The notes under the pieces were generated by a model that was given only the letters and a program-made list of their open reading frames with translations, did not search any database and was not told the origin of the DNA. Source: Amoebophrya sp. A120 (Eukaryota; Protista; Dinoflagellata). From it: a DNA stretch of 64,000 bases. Location of the stretch: assembly GCA_905178155.1 (NCBI GenBank), contig CAJINV010000009.1:2147373-2211372 (forward strand), written 5' to 3'. Made by a program: the position numbers and the translations under genes. This document shows positions 7,601-50,686 of the stretch, piece after piece; positions within the stretch are counted from its first letter, which is position 1; each line of letters begins with the position of its first letter.

Positions 7601-10600
7601 TTTCGCAAACTCCGGACTTTTCGAAATTTCCGGAATTTCCGGAACCCGGAAAATCGATTTTTCGGCAGTCCCGGAAAGTCCAAGCAACGCGCGGACTTCC
7701 GGAAAACTTGCTCCTCTGGATTTTCAGGAAGTTGGAAAATCGATTTTGGCAAACAGCCGGACAGCCACCTGCCTTACCCACATAGCAGGCCCGCGCCACC
7801 TCTTTTGCCCGCACCACCACTGACGCGGACATCGCACAAGGAGCGGTCCAACAAAATCGATTTTGCACGCCTCGGGTGATTGAACCCGCAGACGATTCTG
7901 CGAGCCTGAAATAACTAAAATCCCCGACTCTGCGCCCCATCAAGCGCCCAGCGGCTGTCGAGGACTGAGCCGCGGCACCCACCGAGGGCTGTCTGTTTAC
8001 AAAATCGATTTTGCGACCCCCGCGCCAGCCGAGAGCCTGTTCCTGGCGCCTCTACGGAGCTCAGAACACGCAGACGGGGCCCATGCCGCTCCCGCGGCTT
8101 TTCAGAACTTGGGCCCGGATGTAAGTCACAAGCTCGGGCGTTTTTCATTGCTTTCTACGCTGGGCCAACGCGATGAATGTGCGGAACTTCATCGGGGCGC
8201 AAGTTCTGGAATTCGCGATCATCCCTAAGCCTGTAGCGTGCGAGCGAAACATCGATCGATCCAAGGCGGGCAGAGGCCCGTCCTCTGCGACTTCGCCCCA
8301 CGCAATCAATTTTGCAGCTTTTGCCGGATTTTCCGGCTTTTGTGTTGGTAAAATCGATTTTGCGACCACGCGCGGACTGTGTGGCCCCGCCCGAGGATAG
8401 GGCATCTTCGAAAAGCGTGCCCGAAGGGTGCGCACAAAATCGAATCTGTCCGCGGGTACTCACAAAATCGATTTTGTGAGCACCGCCCGCCGGGCGGAAC
8501 ATGACAACCCGGCGCCCCCAACCCGGCTGCGGGAATCTTTCTGGCAGCCCGGACGCTCCAGGGTGGGGCCTAACGCCTCAGGACACCGGCAAAAACTGCC
8601 GGGAGACCGAGTTGGCGCATTCTCGAGCTTCGAGAACGCGGGCAACCGACTTCGTTTCGCGCTACTTTGCTTCGCTTGTGGACGTTAGCAGCCGCGGCAC
8701 AAAGTCGATTTTTTGCGGCGTGCCTGGATTTTTTGCGGATTTTTTTCCGATTTTCTTAACATTTTTGAAGTCGGTCCAAATCAGTACTAATCTACGTACA
8801 CGGCGTGCAGATTCACGCCGACTTTATTCTTCAGTAAATTCGTCTTTGTTTGCGCAACAGCAGGCTGTACAGGTGTCGTGATTCCTGCGTCTGAAAAATT
8901 TTCTGCTTTGCCGGTGCTCATCTTTGTGGTGACGGCGCCATCGTCGAATGAACTTGAAGGAGTGCCACCACCACGTGCTGCTGATGAAGAGGAACTCGAT
9001 GAGATGGCAAGTGTTGATGTCGCGGACCATGCAGCTGGCGTGGAAACACCTCCAGATCTACTCTGCGGTGGCGACACTGACTCTTTCGTCGTGCGGGTAC
9101 TACCCGGCCCACCAGATGCAGTGCAGTACCCGCCACCCCTCAAGGGGTCATGAGATCGCATCGTACTCGTGGTGCCAAATTCATCTTGTTCGGCCGCTTG
9201 CGCGGTGGTTGTGTCGGAGTGCTCGTGGTCTTTTCCTGTCCTCTGACCCTCGGTAGTTCGTTTCGCGACTTGTTCATCAACACTTCTATTCTCGATGCTC
9301 AGAACTAGGTCGTGCACATGCCCCGCTTGTCCCTGCGTCATCGCAACATCTTCTTCAAGCGCCGATATCACAGGAAAAAGTGTTAACGTTAACGGTTTTC
9401 ATAGATTACAAAAATGCATGACAAATTTTGCCTAGTATGCATGATATACATGACAAATTTTGGCACGTTTTGGGATGCGTTTCTGCATCACAAATTCCGT
9501 TAACGTTAACACTTTTTCCTGTGATAGCCGAGGAGTTCTCCTCAAGCTCATTGCCACTCATCGTACCACCTCCGCTCTCCATTGACAGAAAGCGCGAAGA
9601 TGAGGACGAACCCGCACCACGTGGCGTCGCAGTCGCAGTAGAGCCGGTGACAACAGAGGACCCAGTTGAGGCGTCCGAGTGCTTGCGCCCGTACTTCGCC
9701 TGCTCCTGTTGATCGGATTCGGACAGTGGGTTTTCGACGTCCTCTTCCCGATTCATGCCTCCTGAAGCACTTGGTGCCTCGTCTCCGCAGCTGCCCTCGG
9801 CCGCGACTTCCGTGTCGCTCCATGCGACGTCGCCGGAACGCATCGTCCTCGTTCTCGTCGTCCCGCCAGTCTGAAGAGCAGTCGTCGCGCTGCGAGAGTC
9901 CTCGCCTTCGGCATCGGAGGTCAGGTCCATCTGCGCGTCTCCTGCAGCCAAAGTTGTGCTCGCGGTTCTGTAGTCCTGAATGAAATTCCAGTTTTCCGAA
10001 ACCTCTAGGGAATAGTCGTAAGGCACCATGGTGGGCGCCCACCAATAGGGCAAACGCGTGTAAATCTTGTCTGGCTCATGGCGAAAACTCGCGGTATAGA
10101 TCACCGGCGGTGCTACTGGCGGTCGAGAATCTGCCGCGACTGTGCGTGGTCTAGTACTCGATCCCTTTTCTATTTTGTCCGATTTGTTCTTTACTTTCAT
10201 GTTCCCATCTGCATTTGCCATTGCGTGTTCGCTTGCTGACTGTGGCCGTGGATACTCGATGGTATCCCCTGGCGCCACAATCACGTTCCGTATCATTCGC
10301 GCGTCGGGGTTCTCTTCAAAATCGTCGCCCAAAGGAATAAACGCGAGCTGCGTCGTGTGCCGCGCCGGAAGATCAGAAGACTCGGTGCCTTCACCATCAG
10401 CGCGACGAGGACCTAGACCTTCAACTTCCCAAGCCTTGTCGCTGTCTATTGGAACGAAACTTTCAGGAATCAGCAAGGACATCAAAGAAGCTGCAGACGG
10501 CTTACTTGAGAAAGACACAAAATCTTCAATTTGTTCCCGTGCGAGAGTAGGCGTCCCCGTCTGTTGGCCTTGGTCTCCTTCGCCTTCCTCAACAATAATC

Positions 10601-11034
10601 AAATTTGTTGCCGTAGCCGTTGTGTCTCTCGAACTCCTCGATCTCGATGATTGTTCTTTTTCTTGTTGCCCACTAGCACTAGCAGACGACGCGGACGAGT
10701 TCGTGCAGCTGGACGTCGTAGGGTGGTCATGGGAGGCGCCCAGTTTCATCTTCGCGCGCTTTCGCAAGAGCGCCTGAGCGAGTACTATTCCGCCGCTGGT
10801 CGTCGTAATGCTGGGGTATAATGTTGACCAGAAAAGCGAACTGCAACAAATCGAGACTAGCGAGCTTCGTCCGGCGACGTGCCGCCCGGCCGCTTGAAGT
10901 CGCGAACGCGCGTTGGGTCTTGCCACGTGACACTGCGAAGGCACCATGGCACTACTTTTTGTGGGCTTTATACGGATAGGAGCAGGACGAGCGAACTTTT
11001 TGGTTTTTCTTTTATTTACTCCGGTGCCGGTCAT
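1676..11034 (-). CDS. Large (~2049 aa) low-complexity protein with two PAM2-like motifs; exons 11034-9527, 9360-8790, 5746-1676
   Basis: ORFs 9406..11034, 8787..9371 and the non-repeat part of 1676..6685 join in frame (ENSS|ALEEDV and LHAVYVD|DTTGILYIY) when the two TIR elements plus one TSD each are removed; total 6150 nt. PAM2-like motifs: QLNPKATSFTPG and EWNANATEFVPG. Confidence 0.7.
5871..6495. repeat. Minisatellite of near-palindromic ~21-bp units (TTGCACAAAATCGATTTTGCA) with variant units
   Basis: Tandem copies around the palindromic core AAAATCGATTTT, interspersed with AAAACCGAATCCCG and CCCGCAGACGCGGA variants. Explains the repetitive ORFs in all frames. Confidence 0.9.
7051..7494. 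repeat. Nested inverted-repeat cluster inside the 3-kb element
   Basis: A ~75-bp unit (CGGACTAAACCTGGTCCATACCATCGGCGGAGGCAGTTG...AAAAATCC) at 7074-7148 is inverted at 7420-7494, with a partial inverted copy at ~7253-7290. The palindrome TTACTATT(G/C)AATAGTA(A) occurs at ~7051, 7234 and 7297. Confidence 0.85.
9366..9526. mobile_element. 161-bp introner-like element (30-bp TIR, 5-bp TSD GCCGA); non-canonical intron
   Basis: Perfect TIR TATCACAGGAAAAAGTGTTAACGTTAACGG. GCCGA at 9361-9365 and 9527-9531. Removing 166 nt restores the host frame. Confidence 0.9.
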
Positions 11035-26302: not shown

Positions 26303-28382
26303 GACGGTAACTTTCTCCGAAGGGGACGAAAGCCTGGTCAGCAGTACGCTGGGCAAGCTAGGAACAATTTCGACCCCAAAAAGCTCCGACCACGACCGGC
26401 AGTGCAAAAAGATACAGACATCATGGTCTTGCCGCGTTGGTACAACTGCTCATAATCGTGTGTAGTATAATATTTCGTTACAAAATATCACCGCTAAAAA
26501 AATAATGAACGGTCGTACATCTGCAGGTGCAAACAGAGGTACACCCTCAAGATCAAAAATGACAGAAGCTGGCCGCTGTGGGTAAATGACAATGAGGGAA
26601 GAAGATAAAAGATCGAGCCCGAGGGGCAGAAATGATCGAGCTTTATTACTCTGCGATGGAGGAAATTAATATGGGAACACGAACACCGCGATACAGATAC
26701 TACTTAATTTGTTTCAAATCCTACTCCTTGTTTGATGCGCGGGTGGGAGTGTAAAAATAATATCCATTGCGTTGCGAGAGCGAGAGGGAGAGCGTCACCG
26801 TCTTCAGCGTAACATACTATAAAAGTTGAAGTTCCTCATATCGAGCGTTGTGGTTTTAGTGCAGTAGAGTGATGATGTAGCCGCTCTTGGCGAAGGAGGG
26901 TCTCCTTAATGGGGCTCCACCTGGTTTTTGTTGTATGCATGATGATACATAGACAGAGCTAGAGGTGCTGGATTTTCAGATCTAGAAAAGGAATAAATTT
27001 GCTGAACATCTAAGCGGTCGTGTGACAAACGCTCGCGCATTCCAGCAACTCGGACCGACTAGCTTTGGCTTTGCGTAGCTGGAGGCGGTAAAGTACATTT
27101 TCATTTACATGATTAGTGCAGCTGTTGTTCGTATGCAGATGTTCATGCTGTCATTGCGAATCATGAGTCGTCGTCGTGGCTTTAAACTTTATTTATCGCG
27201 GTAACTACAATAGTCACGGGACGAGGTGGTGTCGCTTTCCTCGTCTTCCATGTTGATTGTTTGTAGTAAATGGCGCTAAATTGACTGCATGAACGAGAAC
27301 CGAGTGTCAAACTATCGCTCAAAAAACCGATGTTTTTCATCTAGTAATTTACTTCTGCTATTGAACGTTGCAACTTCACTCAAAACCGATTTTTTGGTTC
27401 CCTCACTCACCGACTCATACCTTCATCGTGTTACCCAGTGGGTCAGGACGAAAACAAACACAAAAAGCGGATGTCAACGTACGAAGTGTGAAAGTCTCCA
27501 TTCAACGTAAGTACTGAACAGACGCACCCACTAGTAGACGCGTGCAACTTCTTCGTTCGCGCGGTTTAGGTTTAGCTATAGCTACAAGGCAACTTTCATC
27601 AAATCACCAACCAGAATAGACTGACAGGGGGTTCTACGTCTTTTTATCTGTATTCGTAGCAAGATGATGACGTTGCAACGTTAGTCTGGATAAAGAACAT
27701 AACAACCCGCCTGTGTGACGATGCGAAAACAGACCACAGAAAGAAGGATCGAAATTCAAAATCTATGTTTGCAAAATTTCCCTTACAAACGAAGCCAACA
27801 ATCATTCAAAAAATATAAGCTGTATTCTCTAGAGGAGGCCACTTTTACTTTTTTGTCTTTGATTTGTAGCAAACGAAGAGAGTGATAAAAGAGTCTAAAG
27901 CGATCTCATCCGGTTCTGTATCACCGGAGAAGCGAAAGCAATAGGCTAAACGTAAACACGAACATACCAAAGAGCAAAAGCTAAAAAGACGATCAAAATG
28001 GTCTTTAAGTTTATTTTCTATGCTCCTCATTCTGCACAACGAAGCATCATACCGCAACAAATCAATGCAAGTGCAACCAACAATATTAGGCGTATCTTTG
28101 CTGGACTGAAAAAACGTCATCCGCCCCCGAAGCAACCAGAGCAGTGCGACGAATTGCAACTACATTCAAATACAAATTGAAATTGATCATTTCTGCAAAA
28201 AGAAAATAAAACAAAAGTTATGATGTAGTTCATGATCATGATATGAGGTTCAGGTTGCTCATGCTGGTATCGCGAGGAAGAGTTGGTAGCTATCGCTCCA
28301 TATGCAACTATAATGTTAGAACCGAAAGCGAAAAGCGAAACCCTAGCCCAAGCCAGTTCTTGACGACAGTATTCGACACATT

Positions 28383-31300
28383 TCAGTTCTTTCCCGTCGG
28401 CGTCGCAGGCTTCACAGTGTCTGGACTCGAGGGCTTCGGCTGCTCCGGCTCATCCACTAAATCCGCAAGAATCTTCCCGAGTGAGAGCCCAAAGGTGTAG
28501 ATGTCTTTGCTTTTCCAGGCGTCAAAGGAAGACTCCATGTTCTTCAAGACGTCATCTCCTTGGGCGTACAGGTGCGCACCTGCAGGAAAAACATAGAACA
28601 AGTGCAATAAGTTAGATTTTTTTTTTGTAATTTATTGCGCCCGACGTCTTCTGCCTCAGCAACAGCTGAAGTGGAACTCGATGACTCTAGAAAATAGCAA
28701 TGGAGCTTCTACATGTAGTCAAAACTAAAGCTCCAGCTCGGTGATGTCATGTGCTGGTGCTGCGGCTGCCCCGGACCCTCGAAACAAAATAGCAAACTTT
28801 AACTTAGATATACGTTATACAGGAACAGGAACGAATTTCATGCTTGATGAACGGCACGTTGTAAAACAAAACAAAAAATCAAAAGTACTCAGCTTTTGCG
28901 CGATTTCTTTCGGGTCACGTCGATCATCTGCCAGCCACTGCAAGCTTTTTTCGATCTGCGTGGTCTCCTGCTCTGATTTCTGTAGCAAATAGTACAAATG
29001 CGGCAAGTTTTGCAGCGACTTTCCCAGCTTCTCCAAGCCCTGGCCGAGCAGCGTTACGTTCCTCCAGCTGATCGCTCGCGCGATGACCACCACTGCGTTG
29101 ATATGGATGTGTCAGGTTTGAAATCGTCAAAGTTGAAATAGAAATAGTTTGTCATGCATAAAATGGATACCAGTTAGACCTACAGTTTGTAGTCGGCGCA
29201 TGGCAAATTTTCCCGGTCCTGGAAGCGAGTCTGTCACGCGGTTTAGGGCAAAGAGCTGCCTTCTGTCATGCTAGTTAGCAGTCCAACTTTTGACCCTTAC
29301 CAGGACTATAATCTGCCTCCCTTGGGTCCTCTGCAATAGAGTCACTCTTTGACTTTGTATCGCATTTTATGCATTGCAAATTATTTCAACTTTGACGATT
29401 TCAAACCTGACGCTTCCATAGTTGAACAAGTCCTGCGTTTCGGTGTTGGTGTCCACGAAAAACTCATCCGTGGTGTGGAACCCCATGCCCTCCAGTAGAC
29501 CCTTGATCAGTTGCGCGCGTTCCTGCGGGGAGGGCTTCGACGGAGAGAAAAGAAGGAGCTGCTGCAGATCGTGGTTGGGGTCTGACCGGTCGTGCTTTTT
29601 CTCCAGCACAAGCTGTAGTGGTTTTTTGGCGTATTACAAATTTTCACCGACAAGCACTACTCGCAGTGATAGTCAGAACGTTATTCAAAAAGTCGCCAAC
29701 GTGCGTCGGAGTGCAAAGTCTAGGTTTGATGTCAAGGACTACCATGAAGATGTCTTCATGCTAGCTGAACCTGAGAGTTGTCAAGAACATTTTTCGTTTT
29801 TCGTTATAATGCTCTACGCAAAAATGGTCATGATCCAAAAGAGGATAAAACAGGTCCAACGGGGGAACGTCGTACTACTTACCTTAACAATCGCCCCCAG
29901 CTCCTTGCCACATTCGAAGTAGTTTTTCGCCCGGAACGCTTGGAATGCCGATTTCCAATCCTCTGCGATCTCACCGAAATTGCGGAACAACCGCTCGGCC
30001 GTCCTAGTAGGGAACATCATTGGGTTCTTCAAAACGTCGCGAATGGTCTGCTCCTCCTGCTTTAACTCGCCAAGCGTGGCCGGCACTTTCTCGAACACCT
30101 GCCCCAGTAGGGCCAGCATGTCGCCCATTTGGTCTAAAAACCCCAAAGGATTTCCCTGCCCGAACGCTTGCTCAGCTTGCTGAAAATGTTGCTTCGCCTT
30201 CTTCAGCGTCTCCGCCTCCAGCTCGATCTCCTTCACGGTCTCTTCCGCGATGTCCAGGCCGGACCCCTCGACGAAACCCCGGAGCAGCTGTTGCAAGTCG
30301 GTTTTAGCAAAACCCAGCTCCTCCTTCACCTTCTCCTTGATTCGCTGCCCGATGGACTCCTTTTCGTCGTTTCTCTTCTGCTGCTCCGGAGCAGCTTGTT
30401 GTTCCTGCTGTACTAGGTCGCAATAGCCGTCCTTGCAACTACTCTTGCCCTCGTTCATCCTCATGAAGGTTTCTACGATGTCCTTGTCAGACACAGAGGA
30501 CTGGTAGGGCTTCTTCGCGACGGGTGCCTTCCGCTCCGGCATTTTTGTGGTGGAAGATGCATCGCTATAATTGACTTGTTCGGACGAGGTGGAGGTCGGG
30601 GTGCTGGTGGTCGCCTTGTAGTTAGAGATTCCGCCAGAACTTCTACCCGTTGGATCGGGATCGGTTTCATCGTCTGTGGCGGCACTCATGGCCGAGCTCG
30701 ACCCCGAGGAGTTGCTGCCGGGTGTGGAGGTACCGCCAGCAAGTGCTGACGAGCTAGCACTCGCCAGAGACGCCGATGTAGTCGCGCTTGTAGACGGCGT
30801 TGGTGGTCCTGGTGCGGTAGCGGCTTGAGTACTCGACGAGGATTGCTTGGCTACTCCCTTTGTTCGTGCCGTTGACGGGCTGAAGCTGTCTACGCCACCC
30901 AGAACGTAATCCTGAGCTCCAGTATCCATCGCAGCTGCTGAGGAGTAGGAAGTAACGGCGCCAAAGTGCGCGTCCAGCCACGGGCCGACATTGGTCGATT
31001 TGCCGCGGTAGCTGCTCAGAAAATCCTGTTCCTGTGCAGCATGATTCGACGAGCTGCTGGTGGTGCCGCCGGAAGAAGATGAAGATGAACCAGGCAGCTC
31101 GCTCTTCTCGTCTTTCTGTTTCTTGGCCTTGTATCGCGCGACCGCTTCCGGGTCTTCCTTGCTCTGCGGGTACGCCACTTTGCAGCCGTCCTCGCCCCTG
31201 TCTGAACCAACCAGGTCTTCTGCGGGCGAAGAGGCTCCGGTTTCCATTGGAGAAGCAGACGCAGCGTCTCTCTCCATAAAGTTCTTGGAGTCCGTCCCTG

Positions 31301-33537
31301 TGCGACGCAGGTACTGGCCAACCAGCCTGCGAAGCGATCTTCCCAAACGCGAGCGCACCGACGGTCTCTTCTTGTTCAGGGTGGAAAGATTACTTTGACT
31401 TTCTTCTTGATCGCCCGGCTCGTCGTCTTTCTTTTCCCCTGCTCTGCTCTGGTCGTCCCCAGCTTGTGCCATTCGTGTAGCTATCGCCCTAGATCCGTAG
31501 TGCAGCGCGCGACGGCGCTGGTTCCGCCTTGCCATTCGCTGTTCGGTCAGACCACCGAGAACGAATGCACAAACAGCAGGTGCGAGACGGACACTAATGT
31601 TGCTGGTAAAAGACTGCCCCTCTTGTTGCACGGGTCGACAAACCTCGCCGCCCAACTCCGGCGCGGGACTACGAAGTACTTTTGCATCTTCACCCGCACC
31701 AGTGAGCTGCGCCCCATTTTTCTGCCGATTTTGCTTCATGCGCAGAAGGAAGGCGGAGTTGTGGGGTCCCCCTGGCAGATCGTGGGCTGCGCAGCACTGA
31801 TCGTCTTCCGCCTCGTCAACCAATTGCTGCGTTGGCGCGGCTGATGTTGAAAAGGCTTCCGCTTTTGAACCAGCTTCGTCCCTGGAGCCTAAGAGTAGCT
31901 GTCCCTGCTGCGAGATCTGCGTCTTGACATTGTCGACCAACCGATTGCATTCTTCACGCACAGTTTTCCCCGCGTGATTGGCCAGTTCTGGAAGGGCGCT
32001 GCGGAGCTTCTGCATGTCGAATACGTCCCGGAGTAGGCCTTCTTTCCGGGGCACAACCATACCCGCGACGCACAGGCCACAGACAGCTGTAGCACCGATA
32101 ACCCGAGCTGCACTGCCTGAAATAGAGATGAGCAGCTAAGTCATTGAATAGTTAGTACTACGGATAAACTGGTTCTGGTGCCTTGTTCAGTATGCAAAAT
32201 CAACACGACAAGAAATAAGTGATAAAAAAATAAGAATTAGGATTGCTGGTAGTGTATCTGTAGATACCTTTGGTCCGTCGCGAACCAAAGCGCCCGGGCC
32301 GGCGTGTCGCCAGTGCGCCTGAAGGCTTTTTGCTCCCCCCAGAGGAAGCACTGCTACTCCGGCGCGCCAAAGGAGTGCTACCGCGACCTTGTTTGCCAGC
32401 GTGCTTCACGACGGCAGCGTACCGCAAACCACGTCCACCCATCGACGCCGGGAAAAGCTTCGACAGAGGCCAGCAGCGAAATTGCTGTTGGCCCCCACGA
32501 GCTCCGTATTTGCCAGCAGCGTGACTCGGAAAGCACTTGCTTCTCCGCCCGCCGTCCTGCAGGGGAGAGCAGTTGGAGTCTGTCGTGGTGGACGAAAAGT
32601 GCAAGCTAACCGGCCACCTGGGTGCGGCGTTGGCCGCCGCCCACTCCAGCTCTTCCCGGTCGAGCGCAGACAGGTTGCTGTTGCTGCTGCTGCCCGCTGT
32701 GGTGGATGATACTTCCAATGGGGTTCCTGTAATGGATGTCCCGTTGCGCGGCTCCTGCCCCACAGTAGCAACAGCGGGTGAAAACAACACTCCCCTTGCG
32801 GCTCTTCCATTTTTGGCACTCATTTCCATCTGGTCGAGGAGTAAAGAGGGGCGCTCGGAATGTTGCCGACTGAACACCAGAGTGGGGGCGCCAGTATAGT
32901 TGCCGCCTCCGCCGCCGCTGCGGGTGGAAAGCTTTTTCTTGAACGGAGAGGCACCGGATGCAGAGCCCGCTGAGCGCGAACTGCAGGACTTCTGCAAATC
33001 GTCGAAACTCTCCACGTCAGCATCCTCTTCTGTTTCTTCTACGCCCGGGGCCCCCGCACCAGCAGAAGCAATTCTGCCGCCCACGAGCGGCAGCTGCTGG
33101 AGCCGCTGAGGACAAGTTTTGCGCGTCCGTCGCGGACAAGACTTGACCCCACCAGAGCACGTTTTCAGAAACGAGCCCCGACCTTCACCTCGCGCGGCGG
33201 AAGTAGAGGCACTGGTCGCACCTGCTTTGTTGTGCTGCACTTTTTCCCGCAAGTCGTGAAGCAAGTTTCTCTGTTGCAGGTTGGCCGCCATGCTGGAAAG
33301 CGCCCCCGGGCCGGACGCGCTGCCGCCGGCTGCTGCAGCGCCACTGTGCATCATCTGTTCCAGATCATCCAAATCCGAGTCATCGAAGACACTACGGTCG
33401 CCGTGGGCCCGACACTGCCCAGCGCCACAGGAGCTGGTACGGGACAACGCCGTCTGTGGCGAGTGTGCGCCCTCCAGAGGCACAGGCGAGCTTGCCGCAA
33501 GAACGGCGGCGACAAGGTAAAGCCTCATGTTGGACAC
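28383..33537 (-). CDS. Putative secreted or membrane protein (~1366 aa) with two C-terminal helical repeats; exons 33537-32268, 32116-29883, 29612-29421, 29096-28889, 28579-28383
   Basis: Signal-peptide-like MRLYLVAAVLAASS. GT-AG introns 32117-32267, 29613-29882 and 28580-28888, plus the TIR element at 29102-29420, give one 4101-nt frame. Confidence 0.7.
29102..29420. mobile_element. 319-bp introner-like element (39-bp TIR, 5-bp TSD GTTGA); non-canonical intron
   Basis: TIR TATGGATGTGTCAGGTTTGAAATCGTCAAAGTTGAAATA with 2 mismatches. GTTGA at 29097-29101 and 29421-29425. Removal joins QDLFN|AVVVIAR. Confidence 0.9.
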
Positions 33538-33945
33538 AAATTCTTTCCTTGGTTCTGTGGAAGAACAGAAATATTAACAGTTGTTTGATGATGAACGACG
33601 TCAATACAGGCGAAACACGACCATTCTCCGATTGTGACTTTAACTTTATACTTTGCCTTGTTGAGAAGAACAAAATGAATTTAAATTTAAGTATTACGAA
33701 TCACAGGATCGATCCAAAAGTAGTCAAAGTAGTAGCAATCCACTTGGAAAAACAGGGCTCGATCAATTGCAAAAACAGTGTGTGTGTGATCCAATTCGAG
33801 TAGTTGTCTAGCTGTTTTTTCACGCCGCGTTTGTGGTTCTTCTTGTTTCATCACAGGAGCCAGCATGCGTCAGCTCGTTGCACACTTCAAGCAAAAGGAA
33901 ACCCTGCCTTTGCTTTTTCTTATTCACGGACGGAAGCCGTCCTGC

Positions 33946-36045
33946 TCAGCTGTGAATTTCTACTTTTCTTTCACAGTACCGCCAGTTGATCCGTGCAGGA
34001 TTAAACCTGGGGTTACAGAGCGGATGGTGAACGTAACCGGGCTCATGCATACCTGACCAAGACCGCGGCAAGTGATCCACATGTCTCATCGCGGCAAATT
34101 CCATGACGTACACCTCCCGAGGCAGCCGCTCCTTTACGTCGCTTTCCTCGAGATTGACGCCGTGGAGCGCGTTTGTATCAAAAATAAAACCCCCGAAAGC
34201 TTTGCCATCCATGTACTCAATCCTCGAGAAGTCCGGGTCCTGGTATCGTCCCCCGGTGTACAACTCAGTTGTAGTCCCGTTTTGAAAAAAATTATGTTCC
34301 TCTTCGGACTCTTGCGAAGTAGATTCTCTTCCCGTTATTTCCGCTTCATCTGGTTGTGACCTCTCCTCCTGGTCGCCCTGTTGATCATATTCTTCGTTGA
34401 AGAACGCAGTCCTAACAGCAGCGTCCTGCAGCTTGTTCGCCGCTCGAACGGGGCCGTGAAAGTAGTCGGTGGGTGAGAGCCAGTGCGTGTGGTGTGTGTT
34501 CCGCATAATCCGGGTCGGAAATCCTTTTCTGGGATCTGCCGGCACGTCGGTGAGGTACAGGTACACTTTCAGCCGCGTGCCACACCCGTCGTGATGCCAT
34601 AGTGCGTTGTCATACTGGTGCTTACGAAGGTCGCCCTTCAGCTTGAAATACCCTACGCCGCCGGTAAATGACACATCCGACGAACGCAAATACCCGTGAA
34701 CCAGCTTCCGTAGCAACGAGTGCCGGTCGGCCAGAAGTGGTAAAAGCCACGCCCGATCATTCGGCCTGACGTGTTTCGTGGCTTTTGCCAAAGAGTTAAT
34801 ATGGTTATCGTCTCCCTGCTCCTGCTGGTCAAGCGGCTTGACGAAAGACGGCACTCGCACGAATCCATCGCGACGGAAGTCTTCGATGAGCTGCCGCTCG
34901 CGGGCGGACAATATCCAGGAAAAAACACCCATCCCCATCCATTTTTTGCATGGCAAATAGTGGACTTTATGCATGTTTTGCATGACAAATTGGATGGGGA
35001 TGGGTGTTTTTTCCTGGATAGACAAAGGTGGCGGTGGACCAACATCAGCAGTTCCCACGGGGCTATCAACTGTAAAAATGTCTGGGTCTGGAAGAATGCG
35101 TGACTTGTCATGCAGCTTTTCCATGACCCATGAAGTCTGGAATGCAGGACCTAGCATGACAGATTCTGCGCGATCTCTCTCATGCCTATCCTGCATGAGA
35201 AACTCCCTCCCGACTTGGTCAAAACTGGACGACTTTTGGTAATCATGCAACACAGATTTTTGCATGCTTCAGATTTAGCATTACAAGTTGCATTCTTCCA
35301 GACCCAGACATTTTTACATTTGATAGGGGCACTCCTGTCCCCAATCCCAACGCCGAAACCAGGTGGGTAGATCCACGGTGAAAACAAACCGCGCCACCGC
35401 CGTTTGAAAATATCTTCGCTGCAAGCGCCGGAGATCTCGGTCCCCGCGTATTCGATTCGCAAGTGCCGTGAAATTCGTTTCCGAGCTTGCGGCGTCCGTA
35501 AATTGTTGATGTCCCGGTATGATCCGTCGGCGGACGACGTTTGTCAAATCGAAGCCAAAGCGGTGCTGCACCAACCCGTCGCGTGCCAGCGCGCGCAAAC
35601 TGACTTGCAGGGCGTCTGCGGCTTTTGTTTTCCTGCCCTCCCGGGTAAAGAGTTTATTTGCGTCTGCAGCTGCATCGCCCCGTTCTTCGAGTGGATTATA
35701 CCAAGCCAGCAGGGCGTCTTCCTTCTTCTCTTCGTCCAGCCAAAATGCATCAATGAGCTCCTGTATCTTTTCGTCCGGGAGAAAGTTTTCGCCTCTCCAC
35801 TGAGGCTTCTCCTTGCGCAAAAAATGATACATATCCGGGTCGTACAACGTTTTGGCCTGGAGGTTCGCCAGAGGCCGTGTTGGCTCCCCCTCGGGAGTAC
35901 TAGAAGATCTAGATCTAGACGAAAGAGCTGCACGACCATAACCGTAGTACAGAAAAATTCCGAAACCGAAGGAAATGGGGGCGCGGCGCCGCTGAAAAAT
36001 CTGGATCTTTTTCCTCATGATCTTAAGGTTAAGTGCCTCCTCCAT
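33946..36045 (-). CDS. Fe(II)/2-oxoglutarate dioxygenase, PhyH-like fold, with N-terminal hydrophobic segment; exons 36045-35326, 35058-35021, 34906-33946
   Basis: IEDFRRDGFVRVP, WHHDG (HxD), LKVYLYLTDV and FIFDTNALHG (distal His) match the PhyH-family pattern. 573 codons after removing two TIR elements. Confidence 0.75.
34912..35020. mobile_element. 109-bp introner-like element (30-bp perfect TIR, 5-bp TSD GACAA)
   Basis: TATCCAGGAAAAAACACCCATCCCCATCCA and its exact reverse complement form the ends. GACAA at 34907-34911 and 35021-35025. Confidence 0.9.
35064..35325. mobile_element. 262-bp introner-like element (36-bp TIR, 5-bp TSD GGGGC)
   Basis: TIR TATCAA(C/A)TGTAAAAATGTCTGGGTCTGGAAGAATGC. 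GGGGC at 35059-35063 and 35326-35330. Removal joins GQECP|VGTADV and removes the in-frame stop. Confidence 0.9.
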
Positions 36046-36805
36046 TATCTGTGGTTACCATTTCCGTGAGTGTCGCCACATCAAAATGCTCACTTACAAT
36101 GAAGCGCTGGTGCAAGGATCACGGTGATAGATCAGCATCAGATTCAGATCCATTAAGTAGCTTCAGCTTCTGCTTGCTGCCAAGAGAGATGAGGCCTTGT
36201 TCACAGTTGGCGCCGACACAGCTTGCTTGTAGTTCCGGCTGCGATAGGGCGCCAATTAAGAGAACCAAGGCATCTAGCTAGCATGGAGGATGCCTTCCAG
36301 AATTATGCTCCCGAGACTCGCCAACTGTAGCTCTGTCATGCAGTTCATGTACAAGTATACTTTTCGTTTTCTTTTGTGTCGCTGTTGTTTCGTCTTCGTT
36401 TTTTCGCAAAATTCTGACAGGAAGTTGTAACAATGTCACAGTCAGTCATCATCTTTCGCAACAGAAACGAGCAGCGTAGTGAAGTGCAGCAATAGCAGGA
36501 CGTGCAAAAAATTCAACATCGACTTCAACATAAACTGCGGCAAGAAGTACACCTGCGTCTTTATCGCTGAAAACCTAAAAAGGTGATCCGCGTGAAGGAC
36601 GATGGGAAACGCGGCACTGAATAGTAAAAGATAAAGTGATGAGGAATTCATATTCGATGAACTACTACTAGAAGAGGCAATAATCTTATCAAAGAAGCTG
36701 CAAGAACATCAGCTCAAATACCCTCATACATCAGTTGCATTTGCAACAGTTCAAGAGATTAAAAATCACCATGTTGAACAAACCGTCGAGGCTAAGCCTT
36801 GATTT

Positions 36806-41830: not shown

Positions 41831-42692
41831 GCTATTTGTCTTTCTCGGCGTGTGAAGTACTTTAGTACCTTCACCGACCTTGCTTCTTCAGAATGTTTTC
41901 TTGGAAAGTAGAGAAACTAGTCGCACCAAGACGCGAAACACCAACGTGAATGTGAACGCCAGCTATTAAGGCTACAGAAGATGGATAAAACTTGATCTTT
42001 GTCTTCAAAGAGGTAAACCTCCACTGTATTCTAAATATTTCTGATGCGGGCGGCTGCGGCAGACAAGGCCATGCCCAGCACTTTCGATAAGAAATTTTTT
42101 TGTCGCTGAGAGTTGTACGAAACAGTACACAATCATGAACAACAACGAGAATGAAGCAGCAGGAAGAAAAAATAGACACAACTTTCTCCTTTCTCTTTCA
42201 ATCTAATCATAAATTGCTGGTTGATGGGTACAAAGTGACTCCGGAAAGATAATCTATGCGTATGCCACGAAAGAAGCGCGCCAGGAATTTTGACAATGAA
42301 CGGTAGACAGATCGTGATCGACGTCTTGATCAAGTTCTGTATCTGCGTACTAGATGTAGATCATCGAACACTATACTATATACAGAAAGTCTAAGCGAGC
42401 TGAGCGCGGGCCCGTCGCGGATGCGTTGTATGCGAGAAGAAGCAAAGAGCATGCTGCGTAGAGTGCCTTTGAGCCTCCTTGTGGCGCAAGAAGGAAAAGT
42501 ACTTCTACAACATGATTGAACATTTTTAAAAAATACTTAATCTCTTTTTTTGGGTGAAAGAGATCTCCCTTCTTCGACCCTCTTTACGCTAGGAGCTCCC
42601 TGGACTAGAACCTCCAATGCAGTAAACTGAAGCGGTGGCGGTCTTGTTCGCCACCACTGCATCTACGTAAACCTATTATACAACATAGTTCG

Positions 42693-44909: not shown

Positions 44910-46361
44910 CTATTAATCCATGATCGACATCTTCATTACGAAGTATACAGCTTGCCACTTCCACCTGCGCGCGAATATCAAGGCGGGCCAATATCGATAT
45001 GCTCCTCCTTCGTTAATACCACAAACTTATAGTGTGTAGTGCTCACTACGTGATCTTTCGTCAGCAATGTGAAGGCTTTCAACTACGTCTACGTCCGCTG
45101 TGCGATGAAGCACAGCCGGACGGGTATACATGCTTTGAGTTGTACAGTCTCCGACTAACACTCATTCATCGGAGGCGACATTCTTTTTTCTGCAACAACT
45201 ACGACCAAATCAACAAGGGAAACTGATTTGCACAGTCTAAAACCAGAATCAGAAACCAGAAGGACAAGTCGTCACACGATCCTCGCAGTAGAGCAAACCA
45301 GGCTCCAGTCTGCTGGTGCTGCATCAACGGCGAGACCAAAAGGTTTTTACTAGATTGAGATTCGCTGAAGACCTGGAGAACGTGAACGACAGAGCAGACA
45401 AACACGAACTTGTTGAATAGATGGTAGTACGTCTACGTTTAGTCTGTCGCCATAGTTCAACACCATCCTCCGCCGCATGATGAACTGCCAAGGCACGATG
45501 TAGGTATTCGTATTGAATATGAAGTTCAAATTCATTACAAACCGTAACCGCCACGACGATCACGACGCCCCGTTCGTCTTCGACATCACTTCTCGTATTT
45601 AGAATCCTTCCGCAACATGAAAATGATCTATCACCGAATATCAAAACGCTGCTGGTACCCGAGGATGATCCACACACTATTGAGCAATCGCACAAATGGA
45701 ACTGACGATGCGTCGTTGCAACAGCTGAGATCTCCTCTTTGATCTTGAACCTCAAGGAGCACAGCCTCACTCCGTGAACAAAGTCTTGATCATCAGCACA
45801 AAAATGTCGTGTTTTCATGCCGTTGCATTTTCTTTTTGTTTATGTTTATTATATCCCTTCGCTGTTTTCCCAAAAGAAACTATAGTATCAAATTCCCGAA
45901 CAAAAAAGTGAGAGCTGTGACTTTGCGAACCGTTTACATGAACATGTGTAATAGAGTAAACCTCTGCCTCATCGGTCTTCCTGGACTAAAAATCCTTGTA
46001 AATATTTATGCAATAATCAGATAATTTTTTTTCAAAACGAAATAAGTACAAAAATTGTTGTATGTTGGACGAAAGTGAAAGAGGGCAAAATTAGCGGTAG
46101 AAAAAAATAATTACTATATAGCTGCAGCTGCTTCAAGGACGAAAAAACTGAAGAAGAGGGTGATCATGTGAGATGTTTAAATTTTTGAATTTCACTGACG
46201 CAACCCTTTGCTGAATGGGAATGTCCCCCGCAAGAAGTCGGAGGCCGTAGTTGTACGGCGGGTACGTCGAAGCCGACACTGACGCTCTCCTCTTTCTTCT
46301 TATCTTCATCGTGCGTCTATTGTTTCGTGATGATGATCGCTCGTGATCTGATCATTTAGAT

Positions 46362-47636
46362 TTACATGATCATCTGATTCGGATTCCACGTATTCTGGTT
46401 TGAATCGACCGCATTGTGGCACTTGTTCCAAGTTTCCTCCGGACGCGCGGTTAGGTCGGTCACGAAAGCGTTACACTGGCACCCGTTCCAAAGCGCTCCC
46501 CCAATCGCGCATTCCGGCGTGTTGACGTTGTTCGGATCATGGCAATTGTTCACTTTCTCGTGGCAGGTCTGCCAGTCCCACGCCCCGCTGCCTTGTGGTA
46601 CCGGTGCCGGTGCAGCAATCGGCGCCACTGCCGGTGCGGCCGCCTGCGGAACCGGCGCAGCCACGGGCGAAGGAGCTGCTGGTGCAGCCAGCGGAGCCGG
46701 TTGGTAGTTCGTCGGTGCACCCGGAGGGGCAGCGGCCGTAATCCCAACGGGTTGCACCGTGTCCCAATCGTGCTCGTGCAGGTCGACACTAGTGTGGCAC
46801 TGGTTCCAGGCCTCCTCCGCCGGCCCCACCGCTTCCGGAGAAGGCACGAAGGTGGTGCACTTACACCCATTCCAGAGTGGTCCCCTGAGCATGCATGGCG
46901 CAGTGTTGACTCTGCTGCTTTCATGACACTTGTTCACTGGGTCGTGGCATTGGGCCCAAGGCAAGGTGCTTTGTGGTGCAGCTGCCGGGGCCGGTTGTAG
47001 TGCCGGTGCAGGGAACGGAACAGGTGCCACTGGGGCGCGGGCCACAGCCGGTCCAGCCGGTGCCGGTGGGCCAATTGGTGCGGCTGGAGCGATCGGTGTT
47101 GTTGTTGTAGCTGTGCTTGGCTGCCGCAGTGGCGACGACCCCTCGCCATCCTCTTCGTACTCCCCCTCGCCATCCTCTTCGTACTCCCCCCCGCCGTCCT
47201 CCTCGTCGTCCTCCTCGTCCTCGTCGTCGTCGTCCTCCTCGTCGTCGTCGCGCTTTTTCCCGACCTTGTTCTTCTCCTTGTCCATGTCCAGCTGCACTTG
47301 TAATACAGTGCTTCCACCAGCACGATCATTTTGATCTTCCGGCACATCTTCAACCGAGGACTGCTCATTCTTTACGACGACCGCACGATCTTGCTGCAGC
47401 AGCTCCTGTTGAAGATGCTGTCCCCCACCGGGGCGATTGTTCCCGGCACGCGACGCAGGTTCTCCTGAAGAGAGATCAATACGCAGCTTCGCGACCCGAA
47501 CGGCACCGCCACGGTACAGGTGCTGCTTCTCGTGCGCTGCAATTCGGGAAGCTTGCAGCAGAAGCAGCTGCGTCTCCGAAGAAACCGTGGCGAGCGCAAA
47601 TACGGCGCAGCTCTTCATCTTCGTGATGTGCGGCAT
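46362..47636 (-). CDS. Putative secreted protein with an acidic tract, Pro/Ala linkers and two copies of a 6-Cys/Trp domain
   Basis: Signal-like MKSCAVFALATVSS, a D/E tract with GEYEEDG twice, and two modules W-x2-CH-x2-VN-x-CH...VNT-x2-C...LWNGC-x-C-x2-FV...EE-x-WN-x-CH-x2-VD. Confidence 0.8.
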   Translation of the reverse strand: MPHITKMKSCAVFALATVSSETQLLLLQASRIAAHEKQHLYRGGAVRVAKLRIDLSSGEPASRAGNNRPGGGQHLQQELLQQDRAVVVKNEQSSVEDVPEDQNDRAGGSTVLQVQLDMDKEKNKVGKKRDDDEEDDDDEDEEDDEEDGGGEYEEDGEGEYEEDGEGSSPLRQPSTATTTTPIAPAAPIGPPAPAGPAVARAPVAPVPFPAPALQPAPAAAPQSTLPWAQCHDPVNKCHESSRVNTAPCMLRGPLWNGCKCTTFVPSPEAVGPAEEAWNQCHTSVDLHEHDWDTVQPVGITAAAPPGAPTNYQPAPLAAPAAPSPVAAPVPQAAAPAVAPIAAPAPVPQGSGAWDWQTCHEKVNNCHDPNNVNTPECAIGGALWNGCQCNAFVTDLTARPEETWNKCHNAVDSNQNTWNPNQMIM

Positions 47637-48948
47637 GCTTTTTGTCAGGACCAGGAAGGTGTGTGAGAGGATAGAAATGTTTTTTTTTCTAAGTGAACAA
47701 AGAAAGTGCAGCTCGTCCTGTTGATTGGATTATTTCAAACACTGGTGGCACACTACTTCAAGGAAAATGGCTTCCCATCGCGCACGACGAAGTTTGACCT
47801 GCTTGACCGCGTTCAGAATACCGCTTATTTAGTACGAAGTAGACGACGACTACGACGACGACCCTTGTAAAAATCGACGTTCTTTCATTTTTCCGGTTCA
47901 AGTTCTCGTTCTGAAATGACGGTCTCGTATTTTATTTTCGACCAAGAAGGCAAAACGACACGACACCAAACTACGGCGGCGAGGTACTTTGATATTACGC
48001 CTCGAAAGTACTCTACCTAGGTGCGTAACTTCTGTCTTTGTAGTTTACGAAGGGCGACGAAGTACAGTTTCCGATCCGACGACACGAGTACCAGAGGTTC
48101 TACTATTTCAAGGTGCTCTGGCCGCGACTAAAGAGGAAATCAAACTGCAGATCATTGAGGACGAAGATCAACCACGTAGCAACAACTGGTTCTTGATGTT
48201 TGAGAGTCCTACAAAAGATGAGAACGAATGCAATGACTCTGCACAGGGGCGGCCACGAAGACGGAGATCGATGCGAAATGTCTCCCACACCCGCGGTTTT
48301 TTTTTCGTGGTCTTATCTACTTTTAGTGTAGCACAATGGTTATCGTTTATACAACTGTGTGTGTCATTCGAGATTCAGCCAATATCTGCTTCATCATATT
48401 GTACATTTTCATACAAGAGATAACCATGATGACGCGACTACAAGAGCTGCGAAGAGAAGCAAATAACATACCAAAAATTTTCTACAGGTGAAAGAACAAA
48501 TGTTGCCGTGGTGACTATTGTGAGTATTGTTGACCTTTTTTCCCGTGAACAAAAAAGCGATAATAGGTATATCAAAACTGATCAGATCCTGGACGTCCTA
48601 GGAGAAAGGATGTTGACCTAGGACAAGGATTGAAGATGGTGTAATTGATGGCTAAACTTCAACTTGTTCATTCTTACGCGCACAAGAGTTGATGTTGAAA
48701 CGGTAACATTAGAAAGAGAGCTGATGTTTGTAATCGATAAAAACGCAACAAAAAGCGGTTTCTTCCGCGCTAATAACTTCCCAGCTTTTTGCGACGATGA
48801 ACAGAATGTTGATTGATGTACCACTATTGGGTGAGGATCGAAGCTGAGTGATGTATAAAAAACTGCACCGGGACGAAGACATCAAACAGCTCTAAACATA
48901 AAAGCAAAAACAACTGCCCAAAAACCGAGCCTAAGCCTGCTTTTGATT

Positions 48949-50686
48949 TTACTCCTTCGGCGGAATTCTCTTGGTCTTGTGGCGACGGAGCCGTAAAGAT
49001 TCGTCGTGCGGTTCCCCCAAAACCGACCGAATGTGGTGCAGCTTGACGTCGCCTCCCTGGCTGTAGGGCAGCGCGAGGTCGTTGGCTGTTGTGAAAGAAA
49101 GTAGAACAGATTAAATTCATGCTCGATACAAAAAAGATGCTTATTTTGCCTTAGCTTTACTTCTACAGGTAATCTGGCTGACAAAGCGAAGATAGAGGAA
49201 ACTCATGACAAAATTACTGAGATGACCAGGTCCAGGTGCACATCACACACGACTTATTATACCGACAGCGTGGCCGTAGTGCCAGTTTTTCTTCCCGAGC
49301 ATTTCGGTGACGCAGCCCTCGGACCGGTTGTGCTGGATGCGGCTGCCCAGGTTTTCGAGGTAGCCGTCGTGCTCGCGCAGCGTTGCCTCGTACTTCATGT
49401 TGTTGCGGGACTTGTGACCGTGCTTCCTGTCCTGCACCAGGTGCTCCCACGTGTTGGTACTTGACCCCTCGCAGCCGGGCCAGTACCGAAAGTTCAGTAT
49501 GCAATGCAAAAGCATCGCACTAGTATAAATTGCATTACAAATTTTCCCAAGAACAAAAATGCAACTTGTCATGCTATTTCAGGTAGAAAGTTGGATTTGT
49601 CATGCACCGCTGCAATTACTACGAGTACGATACTTTTGCAATGCATATTCAGGTCCATGTCGCGGATCGAGGCGATCGGCAGCGCCGACTGGCTGCGGTC
49701 GTATAGCCGTTCCTGCGTTATGGGAGTGTCAGAATCGAAATCGACAAAGTCGGAAAATTTGTAATGCATAACACGTAGGGCACGCATGAGCTGTGTTGGG
49801 GACCAGGCAAATAAGACTGATTGAAAGCCTGCAGTATGCAATGTGCTGCCACAGTAGCACTACAGGCGGACTCTTCTTTGCCTAAACAGCATGACAAACT
49901 GGATTTAGGTACTGCCAAAATTTGTCATGCACCACTTGAAAACTGGGCTCCAACTGGTATCGATTTTATGCATCGCAAATTTTTCGATTTTGTCGATTTC
50001 GATCCTGACATTCCCATATGCGTCTTCGGGTTGGTAAACTTCTCTTCGTACTGCCCGTCCGCGAAGTTCGTTTTCGCCAGGTCGAAACTCTGGTGTGACT
50101 TCGAAAAGTACCTGGTGGTGTTGTGAGGTATTCGATAGTACAGAAGGAAAAATACGTTGCTGGACAATCTATAAGTAACTGTAGTACTAGTGTGCGAAGC
50201 TGCATACTAAAAACACATAACATTCAGAAATAGGCATATCAGGGATGTTTCTCGGGACATGATGGCCGCTCGCGCACTCATGTGCGGCGTTAAAAAAAAA
50301 TCATGAGTACGTGGTAGATACGTACCTCTTCCATTTCAAATCTGGCTTTCCTGCCTTGCCGCCCCGGAGGTTCAGTTGCCAATTTATTTCAGAATACCCA
50401 CCCCCGGAAACCCGCATCGTGGCAGCTGAAGATCATATTGTTGATAGTTGTAAGAGATGATAATCATGAAAATCAATGAATCTATCAGAACTCGCAACTG
50501 AACTTCCGCCTCAGAAAGTAAGTAAGTAGGTTTTTTCCGAGATGAAACAAAAAGCACTTGCAATTTAAGTTTAAGAGTCAAAACCTGCATATCGTGACGC
50601 AACTACAACATGTACATCGATAAGATACCATTCTGCAGCATGGGTCTGGTGTCTGCAAAGTTTCCGTATTTCTCATTGGCAAACAT
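48949..50686 (-). CDS. Hypothetical ~227-aa protein; exons 50686-50629, 50425-50326, 50111-50019, 49713-49648, 49492-49263, 49085-48949
   Basis: Three GT-AG introns (50426-50628, 50112-50325, 49086-49262) plus two TIR elements give a continuous 684-nt frame (MFANEKYGNFADTRPM...YSEINWQLNLRGG...KTKRIPPKE*). The 5' end is uncertain. Confidence 0.7.
49498..49647. mobile_element. 150-bp introner-like element (~37-bp imperfect TIR, 5-bp TSD TTCAG)
   Basis: TATGCAATGCAAAAGCATCGCACTAGTA versus reverse-complemented right end TATGCATTGCAAAAGTATCGTACTCGTA. TTCAG at 49493-49497 and 49648-49652. Removing 155 nt joins DMDLN|FRYWPG. Confidence 0.88.
49719..50018. mobile_element. 300-bp introner-like element (~53-bp TIR, 5-bp TSD TGCGT), homologous to 29102-29420
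   Basis: TIR TATGGGA(G/A)TGTCAG(A/G)ATCGAAATCGACAAA...ATGCATAA. TGCGT at 49714-49718 and 50019-50023. Removing 305 nt joins NPKT|QERLYD. Confidence 0.9.

What the first reader, a model, noticed from the sequence alone, without database searches (positions are those of the whole stretch)
9361..50023. Transposon-shaped introns: six TAT...ATA hairpin elements with 5-bp TSDs inside coding sequence and no canonical splice sites
Seen: elements at 9366-9526, 29102-29420, 34912-35020, 35064-35325, 49498-49647 and 49719-50018 all start TAT and end ATA. Each has a 30-53 bp TIR and a perfect but different 5-bp TSD (GCCGA, GTTGA, GACAA, GGGGC, TTCAG, TGCGT). Removing element plus one TSD (166, 324, 114, 267, 155, 305 nt) gives a continuous host ORF every time, including three lengths that are not multiples of 3. 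Sliding the boundary through the TSD never gives GT-AG, GC-AG or AT-AC. Known: introner elements with inverted/direct repeats and non-canonical borders have been described in Amoebophrya, so the class is not new, but I know of no established removal mechanism. Inference: a structure-guided removal system (RNA hairpin recognition, or precise DNA excision) works alongside the normal GT-AG spliceosome in the same genes.
Basis: partly seen in the sequence, partly recalled or inferred. Interest (0 to 1): 0.9.

Follow-up and report, generated by a model that had tools for sequence, protein, structure and literature searches.

The report
Hairpin transposons removed exactly from mRNA
In the marine parasite Amoebophrya, small hairpin-shaped transposons sit inside protein-coding sequence and are missing, to the exact base, from assembled transcripts although they lack normal splice signals; this class is already published, and the enzyme that likely cuts them out of the RNA has not been identified.

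Summary
All six TAT...ATA elements, their inverted repeats and their 5-bp duplications are at the stated places, and none has canonical borders. RNA-like contigs skip exactly element plus one duplication at 4 of 4 elements tested; for two of these the same contigs also skip GT-AG introns. The public protein carries the same join at a fifth. At two elements the join restores a conserved protein. The window is Amoebophrya sp. A120, and these are its published introner elements (PMC7789003), so the class is already known. Added here, from 262 end pairs in a related assembly: the duplication is 5 bp with no base bias and is often imperfect; both ends look alike; elements sit in either orientation; unrelated families share an inner motif; neighbours cluster 30-89 nt apart. 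Best reading: a hairpin-guided cut-and-join on RNA with a fixed 5-nt offset (inferred, 0.5). A changed spliceosome, DNA-level removal or a polymerase jump, and a reverse-transcriptase artefact are not excluded. No transposase was found.

The parts
9361..9531 (-). Element 1 (9366-9526, 161 nt, 30-nt perfect TIR) with TSD copies 9361-9365 and 9527-9531, in a minus-strand ORF (693 aa stop to stop after removal)
   Evidence: not covered by either read lay, so removal is predicted from the ORF only
29097..29425 (-). Element 2 (29102-29420, 319 nt, 39-nt TIR) with TSD copies 29097-29101 and 29421-29425; same family as element 6, opposite orientation to the transcript
   Evidence: public A120 protein P0025 carries the element-plus-TSD join; not covered by the read lays
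34907..35025 (-). Element 3 (34912-35020, 109 nt) with TSD copies 34907-34911 and 35021-35025
   Evidence: joint 34906>35021, skip 114, in 4 of 4 RNA-like runs
35021..35063 (-). 43-nt stretch between elements 3 and 4 (micro-exon, both TSD copies counted)
35059..35330 (-). Element 4 (35064-35325, 262 nt) with TSD copies 35059-35063 and 35326-35330
   Evidence: joint 35058>35326, skip 267, in 4 of 4 runs
33946..36054 (-). Host gene B, 575 aa stop to stop after both removals; no Pfam match for either large exon
49493..49652 (-). Element 5 (49498-49647, 150 nt) with TSD copies 49493-49497 and 49648-49652
   Evidence: joint 49492>49648, skip 155, in 3 of 4 runs
49714..50023 (-). Element 6 (49719-50018, 300 nt, 53-nt TIR) with TSD copies 49714-49718 and 50019-50023
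   Evidence: joint 49713>50019, skip 305, in 2 of 4 runs
48310..50845 (-). Host gene C: conserved protein of no Pfam family, with two elements and three GT-AG introns (49086-49262, 50112-50325, 50426-50628)
28000..32135 (-). Part of host gene D around element 2, with predicted GT-AG introns 28580-28888 and 29613-29882; matches P0025

Best explanation
These are non-autonomous DNA transposons (Amoebophrya A120 introner elements) inserted into exons with a 5-bp duplication; assembled transcripts lack exactly the element plus one duplication, and the removal likely happens on the pre-mRNA, where the two ends would pair into a long stem that a cut-and-join enzyme system, probably not the splice-site-reading spliceosome, is predicted to cut at a fixed total offset of 5 nt. 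Shown: the anatomy, the exact product in cDNA-derived contigs, co-occurrence with GT-AG introns, and the need for the join to make a conserved protein. Inferred: mobilisation by an integrase-type DDE transposase with a 5-bp stagger that binds the TAT end and the inner TTGYMATGC motif; stem formation in vivo; RNA as the substrate; endonuclease plus ligase chemistry; a ruler rather than a need for two identical TSD copies.
For: Exact skips of 114, 267, 155 and 305 nt with 5 ambiguous letters, and no alternative junction among the 7 joints listed. DNA-like run X1 has contigs running from unique flank into elements 3, 4, 5 and 6 at 41-43x, the depth of the region. Gene C exons lie in three frames of the raw DNA, and the joined protein aligns over both joins to homologs, 66% over 274 aa to the A25 protein P0002. 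Folding energy per nt is -0.36 to -0.58 for the six elements and -0.16 to -0.23 for five GT-AG introns. In the related assembly: 188 of 262 TSD-blind TAT..ATA pairs have a perfect 5-bp repeat and 35 have one mismatch, while perfect 4-, 6- and 7-bp repeats number 1, 0 and 0; TSD bases are unbiased and canonical-compatible TSDs are at chance level, 9 of 60 against 7.8; 5' and 3' ends share one consensus; one family sits 15 times in one orientation to the transcript and 9 times in the other (24 of 81 could be oriented); mismatched-TSD elements keep coding frame as often as perfect ones, 21 of 23 against 60 of 70. U1 snRNA was not detected in A120 (PMC7789003 section 10). An RNase III plus ligase route is proposed for paired introns of diplonemids (PMC12621601 passage).
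Against: No RNA-specific signature was found: TIR mismatches read in transcript sense are G.U 76 against A.C 79 (81 elements), where selection on an RNA stem would favour G.U. The conserved signals are strand-symmetric and look like DNA-binding sites. The RNA evidence is contigs of reverse-transcribed libraries from one sample label and one study, the runs are only guessed to be RNA, and they may be the data behind the public annotation. Empty DNA sites were not excluded: one search showed 15 of 180 joints and hid even the RNA skips. No excised RNA, enzyme or transposase was seen. Removal of mismatched-TSD elements was not observed, only inferred from frame. A120 keeps nearly all spliceosome proteins.
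Confidence: 0.5

Rival explanations
1. A modified U2-type spliceosome without U1 removes the elements; the stem brings the ends together in place of splice-site reading.
For: Nearly all spliceosome proteins are present and U1 was not detected (PMC7789003 section 10); proposed in PMC7789003 section 16 and PMC11282704 section 6; Fritillaria is the precedent given there; elements and GT-AG introns share transcripts.
Against: No border dinucleotide in any register, no TSD base bias, both orientations occur, both ends alike, and the last 30-50 nt are predicted to be paired, unlike the open 3' ends of GT-AG introns in the same genes.
Confidence: 0.25
2. Removal happens at the DNA or transcription step: an end-binding, transposase-like protein excises element plus one TSD from template DNA in some life stage, or RNA polymerase jumps from one TSD copy to the other across a DNA hairpin.
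For: The product, element plus one TSD, is what precise excision or a template jump gives. Signals are strand-symmetric with no G.U bias. The inner motif starts at 32-33 or 40-43 nt from the end, about one helical turn apart. Empty DNA sites were not excluded.
Against: DNA-like contigs carry filled sites at regional depth. One X5 contig at 2.4x lacks element 5 and runs 77 nt into element 6, which fits stepwise RNA processing, though it may be an assembly chimera. Frequent TSD mismatches (55 of 1155 sites) sit poorly with a homology-driven jump. A separate somatic nucleus is not known in this genus (own knowledge).
Confidence: 0.15
3. The skips are made in vitro by reverse-transcriptase template switching across hairpin plus direct repeat; in the cell the elements stay in the RNA, and genes are dead or are read by ribosome hopping between the TSD copies.
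For: Direct repeats plus secondary structure are the known recipe for false non-canonical introns (PMC4176328 passages). All RNA data here are cDNA contigs. The main text of PMC7789003 has no hit for 'template switch', 'artifact' or 'artefact'.
Against: The skipped form is the main contig path at exon depth (40x in X3) for a 305-nt skip. Gene C is conserved and needs both joins. TSD mismatches fall on third codon positions in 13 of 24 sites (P=0.028), which suggests the joined frame is under selection. 29,850 such elements are reported, too many for dead genes.
Confidence: 0.07
4. Ordinary spliceosomal introns that use nearby GT-AG or GC-AG sites.
For: 3 to 15 frame-keeping G[TC]..AG pairs lie within about 30 nt of the ends of each element.
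Against: None is used at the four elements laid; P0025 has the TSD-exact join at a fifth. Element 1 is untested.
Confidence: 0.02

Closest known systems
Amoebophrya A120 introner elements (Farhat et al. 2021, PMC7789003)
   Same: Same organism. IR starting TAT then 7 nt then AAA, 3-5-nt DR with a 5-bp example, hairpin, non-canonical borders, RNA-seq support, 29,850 members.
   Different: The text gives IRs of 8-20 nt and variable DRs and borders; here arms are 30-53 nt, the DR is 5 bp at TAT/ATA ends and the product is fixed. The inner motif, orientation independence and 30-89-nt clustering are not in the sections I read (one search found no 'catg' or 'subterminal'); the figures could not be seen.
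A120 introner families in Gozashti et al. 2025 (PMC12130899)
   Same: Many are classed as TIR DNA elements of unknown superfamily with mostly non-canonical borders; family 38 has TIRs and integrase-like homology.
   Different: I saw 19 of 58 A120 rows and could not assign the six elements to a numbered family.
Euglenid and diplonemid nonconventional introns (PMC11282704, PMC12501133, PMC12621601)
   Same: Paired ends, TSD-like repeats, coexistence with GT-AG introns, unknown machinery; euglenid ones are reported to leave as circles.
   Different: Euglena needs a directional signature (N3CDG ... CH'GN5-6|R, abstract). These elements have long near-perfect symmetric TIRs and a strict 5-bp TSD, in an unrelated lineage.
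IS3EU/GingerRoot DNA transposons (PMC10045372)
   Same: TA..TA termini.
   Different: Their TSD is usually 6 bp; 0 of 262 pairs here had a perfect 6-bp repeat. No transposase to compare.
Ciliate internal eliminated sequences
   Same: Transposon-derived, interrupt coding sequence, removed exactly with one flanking repeat (own knowledge; abstracts listed).
   Different: Those are cut from DNA in a somatic nucleus; here DNA contigs keep the elements and DNA-level loss is not shown.

Membership tests
Amoebophrya A120 introner elements | Located in the A120 genome | tested here: met
   Window exon is 100% identical over 146 aa to P0025, named Amoebophrya sp. A120
Amoebophrya A120 introner elements | Inverted repeats pairing the two intron ends | tested here: met
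   6 of 6
Amoebophrya A120 introner elements | Direct repeat of 3-5 nt at the borders | tested here: met
   5 bp, 6 of 6
Amoebophrya A120 introner elements | IR motif TAT + 7 nt + at least 3 A | tested here: met
   TAT in 6 of 6; AAA at 11-13 in 4 of 6; elements 2 and 6 have TCA there; A at position 13 in 365 of 376 ends
Amoebophrya A120 introner elements | Absent from RNA, with non-canonical borders | tested here: met
   4 of 4 laid; a fifth by the public protein; element 1 untested
Amoebophrya A120 introner elements | Repeated across the genome | tested here: met
   X1 summed depth 3.7e5 and 5.0e4 in element bins against about 45-60 elsewhere; 81-96% identical copies of all six in the fetched loci
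Non-autonomous TIR DNA transposon (MITE) | TIR, fixed-length TSD, short, no ORF, many copies | tested here: met
Non-autonomous TIR DNA transposon (MITE) | Cognate autonomous element with a transposase | tested here: inconclusive
   No transposase or integrase family among 124 ORFs of 200 aa or more in 374 kb of loci; the 1853-nt and 622-nt elements have no long ORF; no whole genome was held
IS3EU/GingerRoot | TA..TA termini | tested here: met
IS3EU/GingerRoot | 6-bp TSD | tested here: not met
   0 of 262 perfect 6-bp repeats; 188 perfect 5-bp repeats
IS3EU/GingerRoot | Transposase in the IS3EU/GingerRoot clade | not testable with these tools
   no transposase in hand
U2 or U12 spliceosomal intron | GT-AG, GC-AG or AT-AC borders | tested here: not met
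   0 of 6 in any register; chance level in the larger set
U2 or U12 spliceosomal intron | Lariat intermediate, dependence on snRNPs | not testable with these tools
   only contigs held the locus; raw-read runs X9 and X10 laid 2 reads each
Euglenid nonconventional intron | Signature N3CDG at the 5' end | tested here: not met
   By eye at the element ends only: positions 4-6 in transcript sense are CAC, GGA, CCA, CAA, GCA, GGG; other registers were not scored
Euglenid nonconventional intron | Excised as a full-length circle | not testable with these tools
   no raw reads of this strain
Ciliate-type IES | Empty sites in somatic DNA | tested here: inconclusive
   filled sites seen; joint table cut to 15 of 180 rows and contigs drop rare variants

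The most novel reading that the evidence does not exclude
The elements are not spliced from RNA at all: a protein that reads the symmetric TAT end and the inner TTGYMATGC motif as double-stranded DNA either excises element plus one TSD from template copies during the intracellular stage, or makes RNA polymerase jump between the TSD copies. That would be IES-like genome editing, or transcriptional skipping, at tens of thousands of sites in a cell without a separate somatic nucleus.
Probability: 0.12. Interest if true: 0.95.

Novelty: already known. Interest (0 to 1): 0.45.

Why it matters
A120 must clear about 30,000 such insertions from its genes without splice signals, so an undescribed removal route exists whichever rival wins. 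A system that takes out any TAT...ATA hairpin with a fixed 5-nt offset would make transposon insertion into exons harmless, explain the burst of intron gain, and be a candidate tool for scarless RNA editing. The class is published; what this work adds is a sharper rule (element plus one 5-bp TSD, either orientation, mismatches tolerated in the genome) that turns the open question into a few direct tests.

Tried and rejected
No whole genome was held, so no genome-wide census or transposase search in A120 itself. No RNA holder was listed as on record; X3-X6 are guessed RNA and behave like it, since they skip GT-AG introns. One search was swamped by joints between repeat copies and cannot show absence of empty DNA sites. 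Elements 1 and 2 were outside both lays. The protein search used the wrong frame and found nothing; one search repeated it in the right frame with another tool. Self-BLAST of gene D found no internal repeat to test join 2. Pfam gave no family for the exons of genes A, B, C and D that I submitted. The TIR pattern had 0 matches in viral contigs; genome contigs was not scanned. Nearest-copy identity (87% against 86%) did not separate perfect from mismatched TSD elements and is no clock in so small a sample. Reading the cut register from mismatched TSDs failed: only one case is informative (L055, where the downstream copy would give a stop). Earlier scan notes returned nothing. No structure or complex prediction was run, as no candidate enzyme was in hand.
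Full report
Observation. The six elements are as described: TAT...ATA ends, long terminal inverted repeats and six different perfect 5-bp flanking repeats. A scan that did not ask for TAT gave 35 hits with a 5-bp repeat: these six, one hit inside element 5, and 28 in a satellite. The TAT..ATA version finds 6 in the window against 0.01 on average in 200 block shuffles. All host genes are on the minus strand. Removing element plus one repeat leaves an open frame at 6 of 6 joins, and no register gives canonical borders. One caveat: element 3 is open in the host frame even if kept.

Organism and prior knowledge. An exon near element 2 is 100% identical to P0025, named Amoebophrya sp. A120, and that public protein has the element-plus-TSD join at element 2. 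PMC7789003 (abstract, sections 10, 11, 12, 16, part 1 of 3 of the methods, passages and supplement passages read) describes these as introner elements: IR motifs that start with TAT in A120, 3-5-nt direct repeats with a 5-bp example, 29,850 members, RNA-seq support, U1 not detected, no transposase found in A120, mechanism open. Its figures could not be seen and may hold detail that I call unreported. PMC12130899 (passages, and 19 of 58 A120 rows of one supplement; 2 of 14 files not searched) classes many A120 families as TIR elements of unknown superfamily and reports one with integrase-like homology. PMC12005148 and PMC11453091 (passages) and PMC11282704 (section 6) add no mechanism. Searches listed no paper whose title or abstract start points to the removal chemistry in Amoebophrya; subscription journals are not in the library, and Roy et al. 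2023 and Guminska et al. 2021 were seen only as citations.

RNA and DNA. Four RNA-like contig sets (one sample label, one study) were laid on 33700-50900 at 99% identity. Seven joints were listed: four skip 114, 267, 155 and 305 nt with exactly 5 ambiguous letters (4, 4, 3 and 2 of 4 runs), and three are GT-AG introns; in X3 and X4 these three lie on the same contigs as the skips of elements 5 and 6. No alternative junction was listed. One X5 contig at 2.4x lacks element 5 but runs 77 nt into element 6; this may be a part-processed RNA or an assembly chimera. The DNA-like run X1 has contigs that pass from unique flank into elements 3, 4, 5 and 6 at 41-43x, and element bins reach summed depths of 3.7e5 and 5.0e4. 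That call showed 15 of 180 joints, so empty DNA sites are not excluded.

Need for removal. The exon after element 5 has 23 hits among protein representatives. With 21 of them aligned (two long weak hits left out), the joined gene C protein is colinear across both joins, 66% identical over 274 aa to the A25 protein P0002, while in raw DNA the exons lie in three frames. The join must therefore be made at some step in the cell if the gene is alive.

Larger sample. A pattern from the ends of elements 2 and 6 matched 93 loci (374 kb) in metagenome contigs; the 80 rows printed share one accession prefix. These loci over-represent the ~310-nt family, and the strain is unknown. A search blind to the TSD found 262 unique TAT..ATA pairs: 188 with a perfect 5-bp repeat, 35 with one mismatch, 11 with two, and 28 with three or more, many of which look like inner or cross-element pairings; perfect 4-, 6- and 7-bp repeats numbered 1, 0 and 0. 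With a codon model trained on window ORFs, the flanks imply a kept gap of 5 nt modulo 3 in 148 of 211 elements overall, and in 95 of 113, 81 of 93 and 44 of 50 at three score cut-offs; I used the 81. This shows insertion into coding-like sequence, not removal. TSD bases show no bias, the three phases are even (24, 30, 27), and canonical-compatible TSDs are at chance (9 of 60 against 7.8). Mismatched-TSD elements keep frame in 21 of 23 cases; 13 of their 24 mismatches are at third codon positions (P=0.028). Elements 2 and 6 are homologous over their length in opposite orientation to the transcript, and the family splits 15 to 9 among the 24 that could be oriented. Both ends have the same consensus, and TIR mismatches show no G.U preference in transcript sense (76 against 79).

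Shared inner motif and spacing. TTGYMATGC occurs 15 times in the 1.3 kb of the six elements and once in about 60 kb outside, and in 183 of 188 elements of the larger set (8.3 against 0.83 per kb). At 216 of 376 ends an inward copy lies in the first 70 nt, mostly at 40-43 or 32-33; the ~150-nt class lacks it there (1 of 60 ends). I read it as a transposase binding site (inference). Neighbouring elements cluster: 49 of 151 gaps are 30-89 nt (null mean 13.5, maximum 27 in 2000 placements) and none is under 30 nt (null mean 6.2, P=0.0025); 41 of the 49 close pairs differ in size class. The floor could come from short-read assembly.

Mechanism. Insertion most likely uses an integrase-type DDE transposase with a 5-bp stagger. 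TA..TA ends recall IS3EU/GingerRoot, but those make 6-bp TSDs (PMC10045372 passages), and no transposase was found in 124 ORFs of the loci. For removal, the two cuts must lie a total of 5 nt outside the stem, in any of six registers. Symmetry, either orientation, no TSD bias and tolerated TSD mismatches fit an enzyme that measures from the base of a stem better than one that reads splice sites or needs two identical repeats. I put RNA-level cut-and-join at 0.5, a U1-less spliceosome at 0.25, DNA excision or a polymerase jump at 0.15, a reverse-transcriptase artefact at 0.07 (PMC4176328 passages) and nearby GT-AG sites at 0.02. The lack of a G.U bias and the DNA-like signals count against my first choice. 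The nearest functional parallels are euglenid and diplonemid nonconventional introns (PMC12501133 abstract; PMC12621601 passages).

Verdict. Real, confirmed in RNA-like contigs at 4 of 4 elements tested, and already known as a class in this same genome. The removal chemistry is open in what I could read, and the anatomy measured here makes it testable. Interest 0.45.

Noticed in passing
L001-L093; window 35021-35063 and 49648-49718: Neighbouring elements cluster at 30-89 nt (49 of 151 gaps, null 13.5) with none under 30 nt; both close pairs in the window (43 and 71 nt) fall in this range. Could be a targeting footprint, a minimum exon size or an assembly effect.
   Followed up: partly
inside all six elements: Shared inner motif TTGYMATGC (typical copy TTTGTCATGC) in both orientations, across families with unrelated TIRs; the inward copy starts about 32 or 42 nt from the end.
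   Followed up: partly
window 59355-60205: Intergenic 851-nt element with a 27-nt TIR, TA ends, short AT-rich subterminal repeats and no 5-bp TSD; a different family.
   Followed up: partly
window 5886-8475: Satellite built on a palindromic unit (CAAAATCGATTTTG) with further inverted repeats at 7051-7511; its start overlaps the long ORF 1676-6706.
   Followed up: no
window 49285-49795 (run X5, record 17): Contig at 2.4x that lacks element 5 but keeps the end of element 6: a possible processing intermediate or a chimera.
   Followed up: no
L059:2114-3966 and L007:3788-4409: Long elements (1853 and 622 nt) with perfect 5-bp TSDs and extra inner DNA but no long ORF; if removed, the system spans kilobase loops.
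   Followed up: partly
L055:2275-2543: Mismatched TSD where the downstream copy would give a stop in the predicted frame, so TSD position 2 should come from the upstream copy; one case only.
   Followed up: partly
window 17814-19442, 24257-26449, 42693-44909: Ordinary genes without these elements: RanBP2-type zinc-finger protein, diacylglycerol kinase, RMND1/DUF155-like protein.
   Followed up: partly
window 48310-50845: Gene C encodes a protein with 23 hits among protein representatives but no Pfam family for the exon tested.
   Followed up: partly
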